DNA of 33,420 bases from a virus (IMGVR_UViG_3300028859_000042); one strand, 5' to 3'. Shown: positions 11,421 through 31,367, counted from the first letter of the stretch. The notes: generated by a model not told the origin, from the sequence alone. Made by a program: numbers and translations.

Positions 11421-12878
11421 TCAACTTAAACATGCACAAATTTGTACAGGAAGTGACGTTTGGATGTTGTTTGATAACATTCCTTGTCCGAACACACTAT
11501 TCTTTATAAATTTAAAGAAATCGTAGTCGCATTTAATTTTAACTGGATTACACAGTTTAAACATATAATTTTTCAGCCATGAAAAATCATTATTTTTGTT
11601 TGATTTTTTAATATGATTAACTGCACCATTTAAATCTGCATTCATTGTTTTATTTATTAGTTTGTCTGTAAACAATCCACGTTTAGAACGAACACCATTT
11701 AGTTCTTTATCTAACGGATTATTAACATCATCACTAACACAAGAACACTTGGAAGTGTAGGCTTCGTTAATTATATCTACTTGAATTCCAACTTCATTAC
11801 TTTTATATTGAATGTAATCCAATAATTTAATGAAAGGAATCTGTATGAAATTTTGTTTTACTTTATTATTTAATTTGCAGTCACCATTATATTTTAAGCT
11901 AGCTAAATTATATGATATGGTTAGGTTTGTTACTGAATTTAATTTCAAGAACTCAACTACCCTTTTACTTACTTTATGAAACTGATCATAAAAATAACGA
12001 TTCCTCTTTTCATAAAGAAATGTCTTATACTTCCTTAATTCTATTCCTCTTTGAGTCCACTTGGAAGCATATTTAATATTATTTTTACTTAAACTATATT
12101 CTATTACTTCGTTAGAAATTGATTCATTTAATTTAGCTATAAAACGATTGAATTTTGAGTTATAAGTCTTAAAGTGATTTCCATCTACAATAATTGATTT
12201 AGATTTTTTATCATCAATAAATATTGCAAGCAAATTATTGACTCCAACATCAATCCCTGCTTCTTTTATGTTCAAATTACTATTTAAAATATCTTCAGTT
12301 AAATAGTTCAAGTGTAAATAAATTTCTTTGTTTGAGTAAACTATTTTAAGGCTTTGAATGTTTTTTGGTAGAAATTCGTGTTTGAAATCAATGTAAAACA
12401 TTTTATTACTTAAGTTAATTCCAATTTTATCTTTTTTCTTGAAGGAAAATGCAATTTGATCAACTAAAATTGAATATTTTGTTACCAAGAATAGCTTTTT
12501 AGCACTGGGTGTATTTGCCTTAACTTTTTGTTTGATTTTAGTGAAAAATGCTTTATAACTTACTTTAACTCTCTTAATCAAATCAGAAATATTATGAATT
12601 TTAAGACATTTAGATAAACGAATCAACTCAATCATTTTATCATAATTTTTATATTTATCTTTAATAAACTTTACTTTGTCTTTTTCCAAACCGCCAGCAG
12701 TTTCAGCAAGAACTGCTCTCATGACTTTATAGTTAGAAAGTAAATTAAAATCTTCTTGGTTTTCCTTCAATATTATAAGGTATAAGTTTTCGAAGTGACG
12801 ATATTTGAAAATATAATCACTCATCATTTTTTTATATTTATCTTCTTTAATGTGTATTATGAAGGTTCTATTATTCAT
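11421..12878 (-). CDS. tnpB: TnpB/Fanzor-like RuvC nuclease (IS605 OrfB family)
   Basis: 485 aa. RuvC-I is GIDVGVNNLLAIF, RuvC-II is EAYTSKCSC and RuvC-III is NADLNGAVNHI, so the D/E/D triad is intact. The usual CxxC...CxxC zinc ribbon between RuvC-II and RuvC-III is degenerate, but there is a C-terminal Cys cluster (CNPVKIKC...ICAC). No TnpA partner is present. Confidence 0.8.
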   Translation of the reverse strand: MNNRTFIIHIKEDKYKKMMSDYIFKYRHFENLYLIILKENQEDFNLLSNYKVMRAVLAETAGGLEKDKVKFIKDKYKNYDKMIELIRLSKCLKIHNISDLIKRVKVSYKAFFTKIKQKVKANTPSAKKLFLVTKYSILVDQIAFSFKKKDKIGINLSNKMFYIDFKHEFLPKNIQSLKIVYSNKEIYLHLNYLTEDILNSNLNIKEAGIDVGVNNLLAIFIDDKKSKSIIVDGNHFKTYNSKFNRFIAKLNESISNEVIEYSLSKNNIKYASKWTQRGIELRKYKTFLYEKRNRYFYDQFHKVSKRVVEFLKLNSVTNLTISYNLASLKYNGDCKLNNKVKQNFIQIPFIKLLDYIQYKSNEVGIQVDIINEAYTSKCSCVSDDVNNPLDKELNGVRSKRGLFTDKLINKTMNADLNGAVNHIKKSNKNNDFSWLKNYMFKLCNPVKIKCDYDFFKFIKNSVFGQGMLSNNIQTSLPVQICACLS

Positions 12879-20234: not shown

Positions 20235-20537
20235 ATGAAAATAGGAGATAAAATATTTTGCTTAGATTATCAAATATATTCGGATTATAATGACGATATT
20301 AAATATAAAGGAGGATTATTAAAAAAAAATACAGAATATACAATCTATGGTATTTTTTTAGAATTTAGTGATTATTCTGAAAAATGGGTAGCAGAAACTC
20401 CTAAGATAGATGATAATAATTGTCAAATATATTTTGAATTAATTGAACTTGATGAGTTGATGTTTAATAAATGTAGATTTTTAACTAATAATGAATATAG
20501 AAAACTTAAGTTGCAGAAAATATATGAAAGTAGGTGA
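20235..20537 (+). CDS. family B member (MKIGDKIFCLD...NNEYRKLKLQKIYESR)
   Basis: 100 aa. Confidence 0.55.
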   Translation: MKIGDKIFCLDYQIYSDYNDDIKYKGGLLKKNTEYTIYGIFLEFSDYSEKWVAETPKIDDNNCQIYFELIELDELMFNKCRFLTNNEYRKLKLQKIYESR

Positions 20538-20985: not shown

Positions 20986-21510
20986 ATGACAGAAAACAAA
21001 CAAATAAATAAAAATGTAACTTTTTTTGGAGGTGCTATTAATGATAGAACTACTTCTAAATATAGTGATAGTGTTTTAATTGGAAACTTTTTAGCTTCAA
21101 ATGGGTATATAATTAAAAATGGAGGATATAGTGGATTAATGGAAGCTGTTTCTAAGGGAGCTAATGAAGCAGAAGGTACAATAATTGGTTATACTTGTTT
21201 ATCTATTGGCTGTGCAAGAGGAAATGAATATTTAACAGAAACAGTTCCTTGTATTGACATCTATCAAAGATTGAGATTATTAATATCTGATAGTGAAATT
21301 TTTATAGTCCAAATAGGTGGAATTGGTACATTATCTGAAGTGTTTCTTCTATTAGATGGCATAAGAAAATTAAAAGTAAAACCAAGAATATTTTTATTTG
21401 GACCTGAATGGAACAATTTATTTAATAATTTAACTGACTTTATGTCACCTGATCAAATAAAAATGATCACATTTTGTCAGGATTTTGAAGAATTTATAAA
21501 AGTTTTTTAA
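20986..21510 (+). CDS. LOG-family (lonely guy / SLOG, TIGR00730-like) Rossmann-fold nucleotide-processing protein
   Basis: 174 aa. NGGYSGLMEAVSKGA matches the LOG GGGxxGLMG motif, and VQIGGIGTLSEVF matches PGGxGTxxE. Confidence 0.7.
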   Translation: MTENKQINKNVTFFGGAINDRTTSKYSDSVLIGNFLASNGYIIKNGGYSGLMEAVSKGANEAEGTIIGYTCLSIGCARGNEYLTETVPCIDIYQRLRLLISDSEIFIVQIGGIGTLSEVFLLLDGIRKLKVKPRIFLFGPEWNNLFNNLTDFMSPDQIKMITFCQDFEEFIKVF

Positions 21511-22270: not shown

Positions 22271-22438
22271 TCATTATATAAACCCAAACATGACAATATT
22301 GTTATGCTTAACAAAAAAAAAAGAAAATTATGAAACATCAACATTAGGTTTTATCATTTGATAGAGGTTCACCTTTTATTATTTTTAATCAATTAGTATT
22401 TAAAAAAATTAATAATTTAATAAAAAAATAATAAAAAT

Positions 22439-22762
22439 ATGAAAACTACAATAAAAAATGATATAAAAAAACTGGCGGAGAATCAATCAAATCTCAGAAA
22501 TCAAAGAAAAACTATTCACATTAAAGGTGAAAGAGTAATGGAATCATGGAAAGCAGATTATTTACATTCTGAAAACAGACATGAATTAAGAATGTTATAT
22601 GCAGCTTATGCAGTATTAAAAGGTAAAATATTTGAAGAAATTGAACCTAAAAATAAACCAGATAAATTGCCTTTATCATATTACAAAAATTCAATTGATA
22701 AATTAGTTGAAAAATATAATGTGATAGAAGAAATTAAAGATGAATCATTAGCATCTATTTAA
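22439..22762 (+). CDS. hypothetical protein
   Basis: 107-aa ORF. Confidence 0.5.
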   Translation: MKTTIKNDIKKLAENQSNLRNQRKTIHIKGERVMESWKADYLHSENRHELRMLYAAYAVLKGKIFEEIEPKNKPDKLPLSYYKNSIDKLVEKYNVIEEIKDESLASI

Positions 22763-22763
22763 T

Positions 22764-23090
22764 ATGATAATGAAAAACGTCAAAGATGATTTAGAAAAAG
22801 ATAAATTATTTATATTAATTGACAACAAGCTTGATGTTACTTATGGAGGAGTTCAAGGTGCTCACGCTTCATGCCAATGGTTACTTGATCATAAATAGGT
22901 GCAAACCTGGAATAATCAATACTTAATTTTTCTATCTGCAGAACTTGAAAAATGGATATTTAAGTTAACTCTTAAAAATATAGATTTCACAGTGTTCTAT
23001 GAACCTGATTTAGATAATAAACCAACTGCATTAGCAGTACATGGCAATGATTCTCTATTTCGTAATTTAAAACTTTGGGGTGCTTTATAA
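22764..23090 (+). CDS. PTH2-type peptidyl-tRNA hydrolase-like gene interrupted by one in-frame TAG (22896-22898)
   Basis: The ATG at 22764 opens MIMKNVKDDLEKDKLFILIDNKLDVTYGGVQGAHASCQWLLDHK, then TAG, then VQTWNNQYLIFLSAELEKWIFKLTLKNIDFTVFYEPDLDNKPTALAVHGNDSLFRNLKLWGAL*. The block LFILIDNKLDV..GGVQGAHAS matches the Pth2 core (vVRtDLkMgkGKiaAQcsHA) and the C-terminus matches ...TvLgIGP.....D..TG.LKLy. It is a shortened, divergent version. It is either a pseudogene or is translated by UAG readthrough. Confidence 0.5.
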
Positions 23091-23112
23091 GCACCCCGAT
23101 TTTAATAAAAAT

Positions 23113-23183
23113 GCTCATTTAGTCCAGTGATAGGGCGGTAGCCTCTAAAACTACCTACATCGGTTTGAATCCGATAGTGAGCA
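23113..23183 (+). tRNA. tRNA with anticodon CUA (UAG-decoding suppressor-type tRNA)
   Basis: The cloverleaf folds by hand. The 7-bp acceptor stem is gctcatt/agtgagc with one G-U. The D stem is gtcc/gggc and the T stem atcgg/ccgat. The T loop is tttgaat. The anticodon stem is gtagc/(a)ctac around the 7-nt loop cuCUAaa, with U33 and A37 present. The discriminator is A and no CCA is encoded. A19 in the D loop together with U56 in the T loop is a covariant replacement of the G19-C56 tertiary pair. The anticodon lies at 23145-23147. Confidence 0.65.
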
Positions 23184-23216
23184 CAAATATATTTTTCATA
23201 AGGTATATTTATTTTT

Positions 23217-23250
23217 AAAAGGATTGAAATTCATTTCAATCCTTTTTTTA
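23217..23250. terminator. strong hairpin with U-tract 3' of the tRNA
   Basis: aaaa-ggattgaaa-ttca-tttcaatcc-ttttttt: a 9-bp perfect stem extended by an A4/T4 pairing. Confidence 0.6.
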
Positions 23251-23289
23251 TGTATAAAAATTTGCACATTCAAAATTTAATAGTTATAT

Positions 23290-26064: not shown

Positions 26065-26282
26065 TTTGCATAAATGATGAAAATAATTGTGATCCAAATA
26101 TAAATCTAATTAAATATAATATTTATATTGTAAAAGAGTTACATGAATATACCAATAATAGAATAATATTAGAATATCATGAAAATAGTTTATATTATAA
26201 TACTAGATTTATATTATTAAAAGAATATAGAAAAGAAAAACTCAAACAAATAGAATTATGTTCAAACCAGGAGATAAAGTAG
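26040..26282 (+). CDS. family B member (MFKPGDRVVCIND...)
   Basis: 80 aa, tail LLKEYRKEKLKQIELCSNQEIK. Confidence 0.6.
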   Translation: MFKPGDRVVCINDENNCDPNINLIKYNIYIVKELHEYTNNRIILEYHENSLYYNTRFILLKEYRKEKLKQIELCSNQEIK

Positions 26283-26494
26283 TGTGTATTAATGATAAAT
26301 ATTTTGATAATGATAAATCTATAATAGAAATGATTAAATATAATATTTATACAATAAATAGAATTGCAGAAATTTCAGGTAGCAATACAGATAGAGTTGT
26401 ATTATATGAATGTAAACGTATGTATTTTTCACACAGATTCATATCATTAAAAGAATATAGAAAACAAAAATTATTAGAAATATGTTCAAAGTAG
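26258..26494 (+). CDS. family B member (MFKPGDKVVCIND...)
   Basis: 78 aa. Confidence 0.6.
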   Translation: MFKPGDKVVCINDKYFDNDKSIIEMIKYNIYTINRIAEISGSNTDRVVLYECKRMYFSHRFISLKEYRKQKLLEICSK

Positions 26495-26748
26495 GAGATA
26501 AAGTAGTTTGTATTGATGTTAAAAAATATAATAATAATAATTATAATGTAAACCTAATTAAATATAATATTTATACAATTAATATAGATTTTTCAGTTTT
26601 TGATAGATCAAGTTTTGGTAGATCAAGAGTTGAAATAAAAGAATGTTGTAATGAGACATTTTATTCAGAGAGATTTATATTATTAAAAGAATATAGAAAA
26701 CAAAAACTCAAACAAATAGAATTATGTTCAAACCAGGAGATAAAGTAG
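26482..26748 (+). CDS. family B member (MFKVGDKVVCIDV...)
   Basis: 88 aa. Confidence 0.6.
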   Translation: MFKVGDKVVCIDVKKYNNNNYNVNLIKYNIYTINIDFSVFDRSSFGRSRVEIKECCNETFYSERFILLKEYRKQKLKQIELCSNQEIK

Positions 26749-27446: not shown

Positions 27447-27685
27447 AACCAGGAGATAAAGTAATTTGTATTGATAATTCTTATTTAGATGATAATAGTA
27501 TGAGAAAATTATTATTAAACCATATTTATATAATTAAACTATGCTTTACATATCAATCAGATCATTTTAATTATATTATATTAGAAAATGATTTTGAATA
27601 TCATGAAAATAGATTTATAACATTAAAAGAATATAGAAAACAAAAACTATTAAAATTATGTTCAAACCAGGAGATAAGTTATTAG
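27440..27685 (+). CDS. family B member (MLKPGDKVICIDN...)
   Basis: 81 aa. Confidence 0.6.
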   Translation: MLKPGDKVICIDNSYLDDNSMRKLLLNHIYIIKLCFTYQSDHFNYIILENDFEYHENRFITLKEYRKQKLLKLCSNQEISY

Positions 27686-27906
27686 AAATATCAACTAACA
27701 AAATTTTCACATTCTGTGATTATATAAAAACTATATCATATTCATCAAATTATAATGATATGATAGTGAATGATTATGATTATGAAAATGGTTTAATATC
27801 AATCAATGAAGATGCAGAAAATTATCATAGAATTAATAAATATTTATCTATTAAAGAATGTAGAAAAGAAAAACTTAAAAAATTATATAAAGATTTTAAT
27901 ATTTAA
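27658..27906 (+). CDS. family B-derived, diverged (MFKPGDKLLEIST...SIKECRKEKLKKLYKDFNI)
   Basis: 82 aa. Confidence 0.5.
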   Translation: MFKPGDKLLEISTNKIFTFCDYIKTISYSSNYNDMIVNDYDYENGLISINEDAENYHRINKYLSIKECRKEKLKKLYKDFNI

Positions 27907-28765: not shown

Positions 28766-28990
28766 ATGAAAATAGGAGATAAAGTTTTATTTACTGATTA
28801 TTTTTATGAACATCATAAATATATAACAGATAATAGATATAATATTTTTACAATCAAAGATTATTTTAGCGATAATTTCACCATTATTTCTTTATATGAA
28901 CTTCCAATGTATTATTTTGAACCAAAAAATTTAATAACAGTATCAGAAATTAGAAAAAAAAAATTAAAAAAATTAAAAATATATGAATAA
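28766..28990 (+). CDS. family B-like (MKIGDKVLFTD...TVSEIRKKKLKKLKIYE)
   Basis: 74 aa. Confidence 0.55.
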   Translation: MKIGDKVLFTDYFYEHHKYITDNRYNIFTIKDYFSDNFTIISLYELPMYYFEPKNLITVSEIRKKKLKKLKIYE

Positions 28991-29534
28991 ATTCGGAGTA
29001 ATATTAGCAAGAGTTCAGCCAGTACATAATGGTCATATGGCATTAATTAAAAAGGCATATGATGAAAATGAAAATGTAGTATTTTTAGTTGGAAGTGCGG
29101 ATAAAGTTGACTCAAGAAATCCAATTCCAGTTAGCATTAGAATTGAAATGCTAAAAGATGCATTAAAAGAAGCTAAGTTGATTGATAAATGTTTAATAAT
29201 ACCATTAGATGATTTAACTTCAGAAAGTGATAATTCTATTGAATGGGGTTTTTATCTTTATACTAAAATAGTAGATCAAATTAAAGATAGTTGTTTCACT
29301 ATGTATTATTCAGATGGATTTGAAATCATCACTAAATGGTTTCCAGGATTTATGTTCAAAAATAATGTATCTCTGGTGCTATTAGCAAGAGGAACTGTTG
29401 AAGATGGTGTATCTGCTACCGAAGTTAGAAAAGCTATACTGAGCAATTCTCCTGAGCTAAAAAACATGGTTCCAAAATCAGTCTATAATAACAGAAATAC
29501 GATTAAATCATTTATTGAATTAAATAAAGAATGA
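28983..29534 (+). CDS. nicotinamide/nicotinate mononucleotide adenylyltransferase (NadM-type NMNAT)
   Basis: 183 aa. ARVQPVHNGH is the (H/T)xGH motif and SATEVRK is the SxTxxR motif. The sequence is collinear with archaeal NadM (GRFQPFHKGHLEVIKK...; ...[23 protein letters not shown] against SATEVRKAILSNSPELKNMVPKSV). Confidence 0.8.
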   Translation: MNKFGVILARVQPVHNGHMALIKKAYDENENVVFLVGSADKVDSRNPIPVSIRIEMLKDALKEAKLIDKCLIIPLDDLTSESDNSIEWGFYLYTKIVDQIKDSCFTMYYSDGFEIITKWFPGFMFKNNVSLVLLARGTVEDGVSATEVRKAILSNSPELKNMVPKSVYNNRNTIKSFIELNKE

Positions 29535-30064: not shown

Positions 30065-30358
30065 ATGAAAGAGCACAATCACAATAATGATATTAATTAT
30101 AATGCTGTTATTGAACAATGTGGTTTAATATTATATAAAAAGAAAGCAATAGGTAATAAAGCAAGATTATTGTATATAATTCAAGCAAAATCTGGTAGAT
30201 ATGATCATCAAAGTATTATTATAATAAAAGAAATTAATAAAGATTTCATAAAAATAAATGATTCTAATGATATAGAATCAAAATTATATGAACCAGATAG
30301 ATTACTTTATAACCAAATAAAAGAATATATAATAGAAGCAAATTATGAATATAGATAG
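30065..30358 (+). CDS. hypothetical protein
   Basis: 97-aa ORF. Confidence 0.45.
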   Translation: MKEHNHNNDINYNAVIEQCGLILYKKKAIGNKARLLYIIQAKSGRYDHQSIIIIKEINKDFIKINDSNDIESKLYEPDRLLYNQIKEYIIEANYEYR

Positions 30359-31367
30359 AAAATTAGCAACAATTCAGGTAATTAAAGACATATTACCAAT
30401 TAAAGGAGCAGATAGAATAGAGGTTGCACGCATAAAAGGTTGGAAAGTAGTAGTTAAAAAAGACGAATTTAAAGTAGGTGACAAAGTTGTTTATTTTGAA
30501 ATTGATTCACTATTACCTATTAGAGAAGAATTTGAATTTCTTAGAAATAGTTCATATAGAAAAACTGATGAACAAGAAGGTTTCCTCTTGAGAACGGTCA
30601 AATTACGCAAACAATTTTCATGTGGACTAATAATGTCATTAGATATTTTAAATGATACACCTTGTCATATATTTAAATTGACAGAAGGTGATGATGTATC
30701 TGATTATCTAAATGTTGTAAAATTTGAAGTTCCAATACCTGATGAACTTAAAGCTGATGTTGTTGGTCCTATTCCTTCATTCATATTGAAGACAAATGAA
30801 GAACGCGCACAAAATTTATCTGATGATTTCGATGAATGGAAAAAAGATAATGTAATATTCTATGAAACAGAGAAACTTGATGGTCAATCTACCACTATGT
30901 ATTTACATAATGGAGTATTTGGCGTGTGTGGTAGAAACTGGGAATTTAAAAGAAATCCAAATAATTTATTTTGGAAATTTGCAATTGAAAATAATATTGA
31001 AGAGAAATTAAGAATATATGGTAAAAATATTGCTGTTCAAGGTGAATTAATTGGTTCAGGAATAGAAGGCAATAACTATAAATTAAGCCATAAAACAATA
31101 AAATATTTTAGAGTTTTTAATATAGATGAATATAAATTGGAAGATTATAATACATTCGTTGATATTGTAACTAATGTATTAAATGCTGACACGGTTCCTT
31201 TAATTTGTAGTTATTATAAATTACCTGGCACTATTGATGAAATATTAAAACATGTTGAAGGCAAATCTGTATTAACAAATTCATCAAAAAGGGAGGGAAG
31301 TGTATTTAAATCAATTGATTCATCAATAAGTTTTAAGGTCATTAACAATGAATATTTAATTAATTGA
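30345..31367 (+). CDS. ATP-dependent RNA ligase, Rnl5-like (DraRnl/NgrRnl type) with N-terminal OB-like domain
   Basis: 340 aa. Nucleotidyltransferase motif I is KLDG (ETEKLDGQS, around residue 177). The motif IV-like EGSVFK and the V-like FKVIN lie near the C-terminus. There is no C-terminal OB domain, and the unique N-terminal domain begins KLATIQVIKDILPIKGADRIEVARIKGWKVVVKK. Confidence 0.65.
   Translation: MNIDRKLATIQVIKDILPIKGADRIEVARIKGWKVVVKKDEFKVGDKVVYFEIDSLLPIREEFEFLRNSSYRKTDEQEGFLLRTVKLRKQFSCGLIMSLDILNDTPCHIFKLTEGDDVSDYLNVVKFEVPIPDELKADVVGPIPSFILKTNEERAQNLSDDFDEWKKDNVIFYETEKLDGQSTTMYLHNGVFGVCGRNWEFKRNPNNLFWKFAIENNIEEKLRIYGKNIAVQGELIGSGIEGNNYKLSHKTIKYFRVFNIDEYKLEDYNTFVDIVTNVLNADTVPLICSYYKLPGTIDEILKHVEGKSVLTNSSKREGSVFKSIDSSISFKVINNEYLIN

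What the first reader, a model, noticed from the sequence alone, without database searches (positions are those of the whole stretch)
22764..23252. tRNA with a CUA (UAG-reading) anticodon lies 22 nt downstream of a PTH2-like gene carrying a single in-frame TAG
What the sequence shows directly:
- 23113-23183 folds into a canonical cloverleaf: a 7-bp acceptor stem, U8, A14, U33, A37 and a T loop TTTGAAT.
- An A19/U56 covariation replaces the G19-C56 tertiary pair.
- The centre of its anticodon loop is C-U-A (23145-23147).
- Immediately upstream, a 109-codon reading frame (22764-23090) has a conserved core that matches Pth2-type peptidyl-tRNA hydrolases (..GGVQGAHAS.. and a C-terminal ..LAV.G....F..LKLW). 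It is open except for one TAG at 22896-22898.

In this window TAA and TGA terminate all the large genes. TAG appears as a stop only in the overlapping junctions of the mini-gene arrays, where readthrough would add 3-9 residues.

From this I infer that the element encodes its own amber-suppressor-type tRNA. It may use UAG as a conditional sense codon, through programmed readthrough or partial code-15-like recoding as described for crAss-like and Lak phages. Alternatively, it may replicate in a host where UAG is sense. A translation factor (a peptidyl-tRNA hydrolase) sits beside the suppressor and is itself the TAG-containing gene, which is striking.
Basis: partly seen in the sequence, partly recalled or inferred. 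Interest (0 to 1): 0.85.

Follow-up and report, generated by a model that had tools for sequence, protein, structure and literature searches.

The report
Suppressor tRNA with dedicated hydrolase module
A huge bog phage carries an amber-suppressor tRNA in one operon with a small PTH2-type hydrolase (itself interrupted by the UAG that the tRNA reads) and a helical partner protein, and this three-part module, not described in the papers I searched, recurs across many huge phages.

Summary
A genuine tRNA(CUA) lies at 23113-23183, 22 nt after a PTH2-fold gene (22764-23090) with one in-frame TAG (22896).

The gene is not a pseudogene. Both halves are under purifying selection (dN/dS 0.07-0.23) and the TAG is kept in diverged relatives. 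Independent in-frame TAGs occur at other positions in other lineages.

The main new result is a conserved three-part module:
- a partner protein (22439-22762, predicted three-helix bundle, no known family);
- the PTH2-like protein;
- a suppressor tRNA.

Across 97 loci from huge phages, including Lak megaphages, the suppressor is the nearest tRNA in 20 of 25 clusters at 70% identity. In the 80 IMG/VR loci it is nearest in 68 of 78, against 12.8 expected. Natural partner-PTH2 fusions exist. In TAG-recoded relatives the module is kept free of TAG.

About 98 kb of this phage shows no other in-frame TAG, and TAG ends 13% of its genes. Genome-wide code 15 is therefore not supported, although late genes of this exact genome were not reached.

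The most likely mechanism is that the hydrolase pair acts on the co-transcribed suppressor tRNA, and here the hydrolase is made only once suppression is active. The papers I searched describe none of this.

The parts
22271..22438 (+). Intergenic region upstream of the operon, the likely promoter region (the promoter itself was not identified)
   Evidence: 168 nt without an ORF. It aligns well with the corresponding regions of L009 and L012. Sigma-70-like matches are no more frequent than in shuffles.
22439..22762 (+). Partner gene: a 107-aa protein predicted to be a three-helix bundle, with no known family. It is the first gene of the module
   Evidence: A member of one of two distantly related families lies directly upstream of the PTH2-like gene in 55 of 62 distinct loci. 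The families have 250 metagenomic homologues, all unnamed, and no credible Pfam or PHROG match. The AlphaFold model has pLDDT 82.8. Fold searches give nothing specific. Natural fusions to the PTH2-like domain exist.
22764..23090 (+). PTH2-fold hydrolase-like gene (probable start 22770), about 106 aa when the TAG is read through
   Evidence: Translation. PHROG 3668 'hydrolase' matches across the TAG. Sub-threshold PF01981 hits in relatives. PDB profile hits to peptidyl-tRNA hydrolases. The AlphaFold model matches only the Pth2 fold. dN/dS 0.07-0.23.
22896..22898 (+). In-frame TAG, codon 43 counted from 22770, in the variable loop after helix 1
   Evidence: The same TAG is present in L008-L011 (92-94% protein identity). 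Homologues have D, E, N, K, S, C or L at this position.
23075..23099 (+). Hairpin of 11 bp spanning the TAA stop codon, followed by a T-rich tail. It may be a processing or stabilising element, or a leaky terminator, between the gene and the tRNA
   Evidence: Its 3' arm is kept in L008/L009, read as '..GAL*AP'.
23113..23183 (+). Amber-suppressor-type tRNA, anticodon CUA at 23145-23147. Class I, A73, CCA not encoded
   Evidence: It is the only tRNA in about 85 kb of this phage.
23217..23246 (+). Intrinsic terminator (13-bp stem and T run) that closes the operon

Best explanation
Context (shown). The window lies in the early or accessory region of a huge phage of about 21% G+C from peat-bog metagenomes. 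The longest contig carrying its genes is 346,561 bp.

Anatomy (shown). Positions 22439-23246 form one operon: partner protein, PTH2-fold protein, a hairpin spanning the stop codon, tRNA(CUA), terminator. This three-part arrangement is conserved in huge phages. The TAG-bearing gene is under purifying selection on both sides of the TAG.

Readthrough (inferred).
- The tRNA has no room for a promoter of its own, so it is transcribed with the two genes and cut out of the 3' end of the message.
- It decodes the single in-frame UAG of the PTH2-like gene.
- Full-length hydrolase is therefore made only when charged suppressor is present.

Function (inferred from conserved adjacency, gene fusions and fold).
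- The partner and the PTH2-like protein work as one unit on the ester-linked form (peptidyl- or aminoacyl-) of the suppressor tRNA.
- They either recycle it or limit how much of it is active.
- In this phage lineage the in-frame TAG closes a feedback or feed-forward loop between the tRNA and its own accessory enzyme.
- In relatives that are truly TAG-recoded, the same two genes are kept free of TAG, as expected of machinery that must be made before the code switch.
- In this phage the suppressor probably serves limited, regulated readthrough rather than a whole-genome change of code.
For: The tRNA is real, and its structure is maintained by covariation.

The gene is not a pseudogene.
- dN/dS is 0.07-0.23 in both the N- and C-terminal parts, at dS 0.19-0.45.
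- The TAG is kept in L008-L011.
- Independent TAGs occur at F-TAG-EPDL in L012/L036/L040 and after W in L111/L112.

The gene and the suppressor tRNA are linked.
- In 80 IMG/VR loci, 66 have a suppressor within 500 nt downstream on the same strand.
- The suppressor is the nearest tRNA in 68 of 78 loci, against 12.8 expected. The loci hold 811 tRNAs, of which 75 are suppressors.
- After dereplication the suppressor is the nearest tRNA in 39 of 49 clusters at 90% identity, 20 of 25 at 70% and 7 of 9 at 50%.
- The pairing also holds with opal (UCA) and UUA suppressors, in Lak megaphages and in LR756500.

The partner gene belongs to the module.
- It lies directly upstream in 55 of 62 loci.
- Natural partner-PTH2 fusions exist: P0326, P0405 and P0170 strongly, four more weakly.

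In recoded relatives the module is free of TAG, while neighbouring ORFs carry 6-17 TAG per 1000 codons.

The fold is Pth2.

The family is restricted to phages: 3 hits in 185,579 cellular species genomes, all on metagenome-assembled contigs.

The operon anatomy is seen directly.

No other in-frame TAG was found in about 98 kb of the same genome.
Against: - No biochemical activity is known for this family.
- Where canonical Pth2 has the GKGK motif, with what I recall as the catalytic lysine, the family has an invariant tyrosine. The chemistry or the substrate may therefore differ.
- The tRNA has a C-A mismatch in the anticodon stem.
- The amino acid it carries could not be inferred.
- Conserved adjacency shows a functional link, not what the substrate is.
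- 5 of 25 clusters at 70% identity have no suppressor in the locus fetched.
- Two TAG-recoded loci, L075 and L113, carry an opal rather than an amber suppressor next to the gene.
- The TAGs sit at variable positions, as expected also for neutral acquisition under any active suppressor.
- Late genes of this exact genome were not seen.
Confidence: 0.55

Rival explanations
1. Partial code-15 recoding. The phage reads TAG as sense in late (structural and lysis) genes that lie outside the sequence examined. The TAG in the PTH2-like gene is one of many neutral sense TAGs in genes expressed together with the suppressor.
For: - The established model places recoding in hallmark and late genes while early genes stay in standard code.
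- The same module occurs in Lak phages and in 5 of 80 loci with a clear local TAG-recoding signal.
- The TAGs sit at variable residues.
- No structural gene was found in the roughly 98 kb assigned to this genome.
Against: - 149 genes in 60 kb, and the further sequence examined, hold no second in-frame TAG.
- TAG is an ordinary terminator for 13% of genes, with no closer back-up stops.
- A structural-gene contig has no in-frame TAG in any ORF of 130 aa or more. Neither do its two roughly 80%-identical relatives. It comes from the same sample and has the same G+C content and a compatible tetranucleotide signature. Its link to this genome is unproven.
- In truly recoded relatives this gene is the one that avoids TAG.
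Confidence: 0.25
2. The PTH2-like protein is a general ribosome-rescue or tRNA-repair accessory, as proposed for canonical PTH2 of jumbo phages. It sits beside the suppressor only because both belong to tRNA-rich regions.
For: - Iyer et al. 2021 describe PTH2 in jumbo phages as part of rescue after tRNA cleavage.
- This phage also encodes two RNA ligases, a PNK-like protein and a CCA-adding-like enzyme.
- Some related loci carry a tmRNA.
Against: - The neighbour is specifically the suppressor even among 10-42 tRNAs (68 of 78 observed, 12.8 expected).
- In this phage and its close relatives the suppressor is the only tRNA for tens of kb, yet it still abuts the gene.
- The anticodon of the neighbour varies (CUA, UCA, UUA) but it is always a stop anticodon.
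Confidence: 0.12
3. The gene is a pseudogene, or it is split into two separately made peptides, the second starting at the GTG directly after the TAG.
For: - Gene callers annotate only the 63-aa C-terminal fragment (P0002).
- GTG follows the TAG.
Against: - Purifying selection acts on both halves, and the TAG is retained over dS 0.2-0.45.
- The fold is a single domain.
- Other lineages have TAGs at different positions that are not followed by a start codon (TAG GAA, TAG ACT).
- No Shine-Dalgarno-like sequence precedes the GTG.
Confidence: 0.05
4. The phage replicates in a host in which UAG is a sense codon.
For: None beyond the presence of the tRNA.
Against: - 20 of 149 genes end in TAG, and in paralogous gene arrays the TAG stops are conserved.
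- No such host is named for the TAG-recoded phages in the paper read.
Confidence: 0.02

Closest known systems
The 'code change module' of stop-codon-recoded phages (suppressor tRNA plus aminoacyl-tRNA synthetase plus release factor; Borges et al., bioRxiv 10.1101/2021.08.26.457843)
   Same: Both are compact sets of phage genes built around a suppressor tRNA. In recoded genomes both are kept in standard code.
   Different: The protein components differ: here a PTH2-fold protein and a helical partner, with no synthetase or release factor nearby. The paper never mentions a hydrolase. In this window the module gene itself carries the recoded codon, and the genome is not visibly recoded.
Canonical Pth2 peptidyl-tRNA hydrolases (Pfam PF01981; archaeal and eukaryotic enzymes, and PTH2 of jumbo phages as in Iyer et al. 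2021, PMC7824862)
   Same: The alpha/beta fold is the same (TM 0.6-0.68 to 2zv3, 3erj, 1xty, 1q7s). So are the QG-x-HA motif and an acidic residue at the 'DAG' position.
   Different: All members score below the Pfam gathering score. The GKGK lysine position is an invariant tyrosine. The family is restricted to phages. It has an obligate partner and a suppressor tRNA as neighbour, neither of which the jumbo-phage review by Iyer et al. reports for PTH2.
Orphan CUA suppressor tRNAs of standard-code jumbo phages, e.g. Xanthomonas phage XacN1 (PMC5852040)
   Same: A huge phage that otherwise uses TAG as a stop encodes a tRNA(CUA).
   Different: For XacN1 no target gene could be found. Here a target lies 22 nt upstream of the tRNA.
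Synthetic suppressor-tRNA feed-forward circuits (PMC7969014; only the title and the start of the abstract were seen)
   Same: An in-frame amber codon makes the output depend on a co-expressed suppressor tRNA.
   Different: That system is engineered. Here the arrangement is natural, and the gated gene product is itself predicted to act on tRNA.

Membership tests
tRNA (Rfam RF00005), amber-suppressor type | Cloverleaf scoring above the family's gathering score | tested here: met
   55.2 bits against 29. ARAGORN agrees.
tRNA (Rfam RF00005), amber-suppressor type | Anticodon CUA in a 7-nt loop with U33 and a purine at position 37 | tested here: met
   The loop is C-U-C-U-A-A-A, with CUA at 23145-23147.
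tRNA (Rfam RF00005), amber-suppressor type | Helices maintained by compensatory changes among relatives | tested here: met
   93.9% of cells paired, 19 of 21 pairs changed on both sides, slid controls 34-46%.
tRNA (Rfam RF00005), amber-suppressor type | Is aminoacylated and suppresses UAG in vivo | not testable with these tools
   Identity could not be inferred from similarity to co-resident tRNAs.
Pth2 peptidyl-tRNA hydrolase (Pfam PF01981) | Sequence reaches the Pfam gathering score | tested here: not met
   The window protein has no hit. The best relative scores 21.0 bits against 23.
Pth2 peptidyl-tRNA hydrolase (Pfam PF01981) | Pth2 alpha/beta fold | tested here: met
   The top 14 Foldseek hits in the PDB are all Pth2 or DUF2000 structures, probability 0.91-1.00 (1.00 for the first 13). 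The next hits have E above 0.2. The model has pLDDT 89.4. It is of a 65%-identical homologue, not of the window protein.
Pth2 peptidyl-tRNA hydrolase (Pfam PF01981) | Catalytic lysine of the GKGK motif (Lys18 of the Sulfolobus solfataricus enzyme, from my own knowledge of the mutagenesis literature) | tested here: not met
   Profile alignments place the family's invariant Tyr at or next to that position. This rests on the alignment alone.
Pth2 peptidyl-tRNA hydrolase (Pfam PF01981) | Catalytic aspartate of the D-A-G motif | tested here: inconclusive
   The family has invariant E and D in the motif E-P-D at the corresponding place. Which residue is the exact equivalent is not resolved.
Pth2 peptidyl-tRNA hydrolase (Pfam PF01981) | Hydrolyses peptidyl-tRNA | not testable with these tools
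   No experimental data exist for this family.
TAG-recoded (code 15) phage | In-frame TAG in many conserved genes, especially structural and lysis genes | tested here: inconclusive
   None other in about 98 kb of this genome. That sequence holds no hallmark genes. A co-occurring structural contig has no in-frame TAG, but it is not proven to be the same genome.
TAG-recoded (code 15) phage | Treating TAG as sense lengthens ORFs more than control reassignments do | tested here: not met
   Window coverage rises from 0.54 to 0.60, against 0.57 for the TGA control. Lak loci, the positive control, rise from 0.30 to 0.77.
TAG-recoded (code 15) phage | TAG rare or absent as a terminator | tested here: not met
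   20 of 149 genes end in TAG.
TAG-recoded (code 15) phage | Encodes a suppressor tRNA(CUA) | tested here: met
Code change module as described by Borges et al. | A release factor or aminoacyl-tRNA synthetase next to the suppressor tRNA | tested here: not met
   The neighbours are the partner and the PTH2-like gene. The nine large window ORFs scanned, the PTH2-like protein and the partner have no release-factor or synthetase domain. The other small ORFs were not scanned.
Partner / PTH2-like / suppressor-tRNA module (defined in this report) | Partner-family gene directly upstream, PTH2-like gene, then a suppressor tRNA within 500 nt downstream on the same strand | tested here: met
   Window 22439-22762, 22764-23090 and 23113-23183.

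The most novel reading that the evidence does not exclude
Huge phages carry a previously unrecognised two-protein accessory system dedicated to suppressor tRNAs: a divergent PTH2-fold esterase and a helical partner, sometimes fused. It controls the charged or peptidyl state of the suppressor, and so the strength or timing of stop-codon readthrough. It would be a missing component of the machinery that lets phages change the genetic code. In some lineages that keep the standard code, an in-frame cognate stop codon wires it into a self-sensing loop.
Probability: 0.4. Interest if true: 0.85.

Novelty: new variant of a known kind. Interest (0 to 1): 0.78.

Why it matters
Two questions about phage stop-codon suppression are open.
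- How do phages tune suppression against the host's release factors?
- Why do jumbo phages that keep the standard code carry suppressor tRNAs at all? For XacN1 no target was found.

This locus bears on both.
- It gives a natural suppressor with an identified target next to it.
- It gives two uncharacterised proteins whose conserved position, fusions and avoidance of TAG in recoded genomes mark them as candidate parts of the suppression machinery.
- Both proteins are small and easy to express, so the hypothesis can be tested directly.
- A natural regulator of amber suppression would also interest people who engineer expanded genetic codes.

Tried and rejected
- **Amino-acid identity of the tRNA.** I compared it with 128 canonical tRNAs of related loci. 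No isoacceptor stands out (best 0.65-0.74 identity, mixed types). The tRNA is class I with A73, and its identity is left open.
- **Back-up stops.** TAG-terminated genes are not followed more closely by TAA or TGA (median 13 against 4 codons).
- **Base after the stop.** In-frame TAGs are followed by purines, but so are most terminal TAGs in this A-rich genome. This says nothing.
- **All-against-all scan for in-frame TAGs flanked by homology.** It is noisy, because near-identical DNA aligns in wrong frames. The Lak positive control worked. Among real genes backed by distant homologues, only the PTH2-like gene came up.
- **Reaching late genes.**
  - The look-up of encoding contigs refuses proteins from outside the window.
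  - Stepwise walking along the 190,824-bp contig of the same phage gave 44 kb with no structural genes.
  - No dispersed exact repeat was usable as an anchor.
  - The C-terminal RK-KL tail motif is concentrated in the window.
  - The MKYIK-FE start motif gave 80 loci. Only L222 could be tied to the 346,561-bp genome.
- **Linking the tail-sheath contig to this genome.** The tetranucleotide correlation is 0.79, against 0.84 between the two halves of this phage's known sequence, which does not discriminate. Exact look-up puts the sheath on contigs of at most 128,956 bp.
- **Close relatives in GenBank.** There are none.

Full report
**Observation.**
ARAGORN finds a single tRNA in the window, at 23113-23184 with anticodon CTA. 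Rfam's tRNA model scores it 55.2 bits, against a gathering score of 29. Read against that alignment, the sequence has:
- a 7-bp acceptor stem;
- U8 and A14;
- the anticodon loop CUCUAAA, with CUA at 23145-23147;
- the T loop TTTGAAT.

The tRNA has one C-A mismatch at the loop-proximal pair of the anticodon stem.

The frame 22764-23090 is open apart from TAG at 22896. Comparison with relatives puts the likely start at 22770.

**Is the gene PTH2-like?**
- The window protein has no Pfam hit. It has a weak PHROG 'hydrolase' match that spans the TAG.
- Seven of ten diverse relatives hit PF01981, all below the gathering score.
- Profiles of the family hit solved peptidyl-tRNA hydrolases (2zv3, 24bt) at E 0.02 to 0.0009.
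- An AlphaFold model of a 65%-identical homologue (pLDDT 89.4) has only Pth2-family and DUF2000 structures among its 14 best Foldseek hits in the PDB. The scores then drop sharply.
- The QG-x-HA motif and an acidic E-P-D motif are kept.
- The position of the GKGK lysine of Pth2 is an invariant tyrosine.

It is therefore a divergent family with the Pth2 fold, not a member of the Pfam family.

**Pseudogene or readthrough?**
The closest loci in the protein collection are the same population (at least 99.9% identical). IMG/VR holds diverged relatives.
- In L008-L011 (92-94% protein identity) the same TAG is kept.
- Between these sequences dN/dS is 0.07-0.23 both before and after the TAG, with dS 0.19-0.45.
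- L012/L036 and L040, a different sub-lineage, have D at that site but a TAG at F-TAG-EPDL.
- L111/L112 have a TAG at a third site.
- The sites are variable positions. They are followed by GTG, GAA and ACT, so restarting translation after the TAG is not a general explanation.
- Two further lineages have TGA at the invariant Trp, in loci that look TGA-recoded.

The gene is translated through its stop codon.

**The module.**
This is the main result.
- Seventeen, and then eighty, IMG/VR loci encoding relatives (down to about 23% identity, G+C 22-48%, most on contigs of more than 90 kb) were scanned for tRNAs.
- In the 80 loci, 66 have a suppressor tRNA within 500 nt downstream on the same strand.
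- The suppressor is the nearest tRNA in 68 of the 78 loci that have any tRNA, against 12.8 expected if tRNA labels were random. There are 811 tRNAs, of which 75 are suppressors.
- After clustering 97 loci, the suppressor is the nearest tRNA in 39 of 49 clusters at 90% identity, 20 of 25 at 70% and 7 of 9 at 50%.
- The neighbour is usually CUA (79) but sometimes UCA (5) or UUA (3).
- The only GenBank phages with the protein are 15 Lak megaphages and LR756500. Each has a suppressor tRNA within 0.7-0.85 kb.
- The family has 892 representatives at the 50% identity level with E up to 1e-10. It is almost absent from 185,579 cellular species genomes: three metagenome-assembled contigs, two of them again with an adjacent tRNA(CUA).

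**The third component.**
- Clustering the neighbouring ORFs showed that the gene directly upstream belongs to one of two distantly related families in 55 of 62 distinct loci. The window's 107-aa gene at 22439-22762 is a member.
- The family has 250 metagenomic homologues, all unnamed.
- It has no credible Pfam or PHROG match.
- It is predicted to be a three-helix bundle (pLDDT 82.8).
- It has no informative structural relative.
- Several family representatives are natural fusions of the partner and the PTH2-like domain: P0326, P0405 and P0170 strongly, and P0313, P0316, P0424 and P0427 more weakly. This argues that the two proteins act together.

**Local anatomy.**
- The partner gene ends one base before the ATG at 22764.
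- A hairpin (23075-23099) spans the stop codon of the PTH2-like gene.
- The tRNA starts 13 nt later.
- A strong terminator follows at 23217-23246.
- The tRNA therefore has to be transcribed with the two genes.

**Is the phage recoded?**
- Treating TAG as sense lengthens ORFs in the window and in the clade's loci no more than the TGA control does. Lak loci, used as a positive control, respond strongly.
- I extended the sequence of this phage with L001 (7.5 kb upstream) and four loci (L116, L125, L186, L187) from a 190,824-bp IMG/VR contig. The contig is 100% identical where it overlaps the window. Together this gives about 85 kb of contiguous sequence.
- In the first 60 kb, 149 genes end in TAA (96), TGA (33) and TAG (20). 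No real gene other than the PTH2-like gene needs TAG as sense, and there is no other tRNA.
- L222 (13 kb) carries proteins that are found, as exact sequences, on the same 346,561-bp contig as the window's module genes. It has no in-frame TAG either.
- None of this sequence holds structural genes.
- A contig with a tail sheath and a baseplate hub also has no in-frame TAG in 23.6 kb, nor do its two roughly 80%-identical relatives. It comes from the same sample as the 190-kb contig, with the same G+C content.
- Exact look-up does not place the sheath on the 346,561-bp contig, so the link is unproven.
- Genome-wide recoding is therefore unsupported, but it is not excluded for late genes.

**Contrast with recoded relatives.**
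In seven loci with clear TAG recoding, including Lak, the partner and the PTH2-like genes have no in-frame TAG, apart from one in a probable pre-start extension in L075. The other ORFs carry 6.3-16.6 TAG per 1000 codons. This is the behaviour described for code-change genes. The window's clade inverts it: there the module gene depends on the suppressor.

**Literature.**
- The preprint on recoding in phages describes suppressor tRNAs, synthetases and release factors, but no hydrolase.
- A 2026 survey of jumbo phages likewise mentions none.
- Iyer et al. 2021 report canonical PTH2 in jumbo phages as a rescue factor and never mention suppressors.
- The XacN1 paper reports CUA suppressors for which no target was found.
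- No paper in the library combines Pth2, phage and suppressor tRNA.

The linkage, the partner protein and the recurrent in-frame stop codon appear to be undescribed, within the limits of that library.

**Mechanism.**
*Shown:*
- the conserved three-part arrangement;
- purifying selection across the TAG;
- the Pth2 fold;
- the fusions;
- the avoidance of TAG in recoded genomes.

*Inferred:*
- The tRNA is processed from the operon transcript and decodes the TAG.
- The protein pair acts on the acylated suppressor tRNA, either to recycle it or to restrain it.
- The TAG makes synthesis of the enzyme conditional on suppression.

The direction of the loop (positive or negative), the substrate and the inserted amino acid are unknown.

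Noticed in passing
L187:1401-1822 (+), about 37.5 kb into the same-phage contig IMGVR_UViG_3300028859_000006: A complete GOLLD RNA (Rfam RF02032, 278.9 bits, E 2e-79) is encoded by the same phage, about 37.5 kb beyond the window's end.
   Followed up: partly
L186:870-3650 (same-phage contig, about 34.0-36.8 kb), next to the GOLLD gene: A gene-free stretch of about 3 kb holds 9 copies of a conserved core of about 32 nt, TTACAAAAAGTTTTTTGTTTTACCAAATATTT. It also holds 6 copies of a 74-nt unit spaced about 93 nt apart. It could be an array of promoters, iterons or small RNAs.
   Followed up: no
window 606-32341, 21 genes (e.g. 606-950, 6670-6912, 20235-20537, 27658-27906): Twenty-one otherwise dissimilar small proteins end in the same C-terminal tail, [YI]RK[KE]KL[KQE]K[IL]. 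The motif is dense in the window and rare further along the genome.
   Followed up: partly
window 26258-26494 (TAG at 26492; next TAG at 26504): In the array of paralogous genes of about 80 aa, this member has TAG where its paralogues have Gln (CAG). It is followed by EIK and the family's usual TAG stop. Either the protein is 4 residues shorter, or a second TAG is read as sense.
   Followed up: no
window 2518-4971 (+): An 817-aa protein carries the Major Vault Protein shoulder and repeat domains and an SPFH/Band 7 domain (PF11978 5.5e-29, PF17795, PF01145). This is unusual for a phage.
   Followed up: no
window 11421-12878 (-): A TnpB/OrfB_IS605-like protein of 485 aa with a Cas12f-like TNB domain, inside the block of small genes.
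   Followed up: no
window 30345-31367; L001:5083-6030; L125:14118-15056; L125:15684-16406: The phage has a set of tRNA repair and maturation genes. There are two RNA ligase genes. A PNK/HAD-like protein and a CCA-adding-enzyme-like protein (GGCVRD motif) were judged from their sequence only. This fits a tRNA gene that does not encode CCA.
   Followed up: partly
12 genes between -3.7 kb and +72.6 kb relative to the window (e.g. L187:2680-3252); L188-L267: A family of genes starts with the near-invariant octapeptide MKYIK-x-FE, encoded by an almost fixed DNA string. The pattern hits more than 107 stretches of mostly AT-rich contigs in IMG/VR. Some members carry ankyrin or LRR repeats.
   Followed up: partly
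L075:5338-5411 and L113:5348-5421: In two loci whose ORFs show a clear TAG-recoding signal, the suppressor next to the PTH2-like gene has an opal (UCA) anticodon, not an amber one. This is unexplained.
   Followed up: partly
L033:4261-4333 and L034:4344-4416 (Lak-A2 and Lak-B7): In Lak megaphages, whose loci are rich in in-frame TAG, the suppressor tRNA beside the homologue has the anticodon UUA. It lies about 0.6-0.7 kb upstream of the gene rather than downstream.
   Followed up: no
window 20986-21510 and 28983-29534: A SLOG/LOG-family ('lysine decarboxylase'-like) protein and a cytidylyltransferase/NMNAT-like protein lie among the small genes.
   Followed up: no
about 7.5-9 kb upstream of the window start (start of L001; starts of the contigs behind L009 and L011): The two IMG/VR contigs start at exactly the same point, with the homologue at position 30,972 in both. 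By my estimate that point is close to where the ENA contig of L001 starts. This suggests a genome end or a repeat.
   Followed up: no
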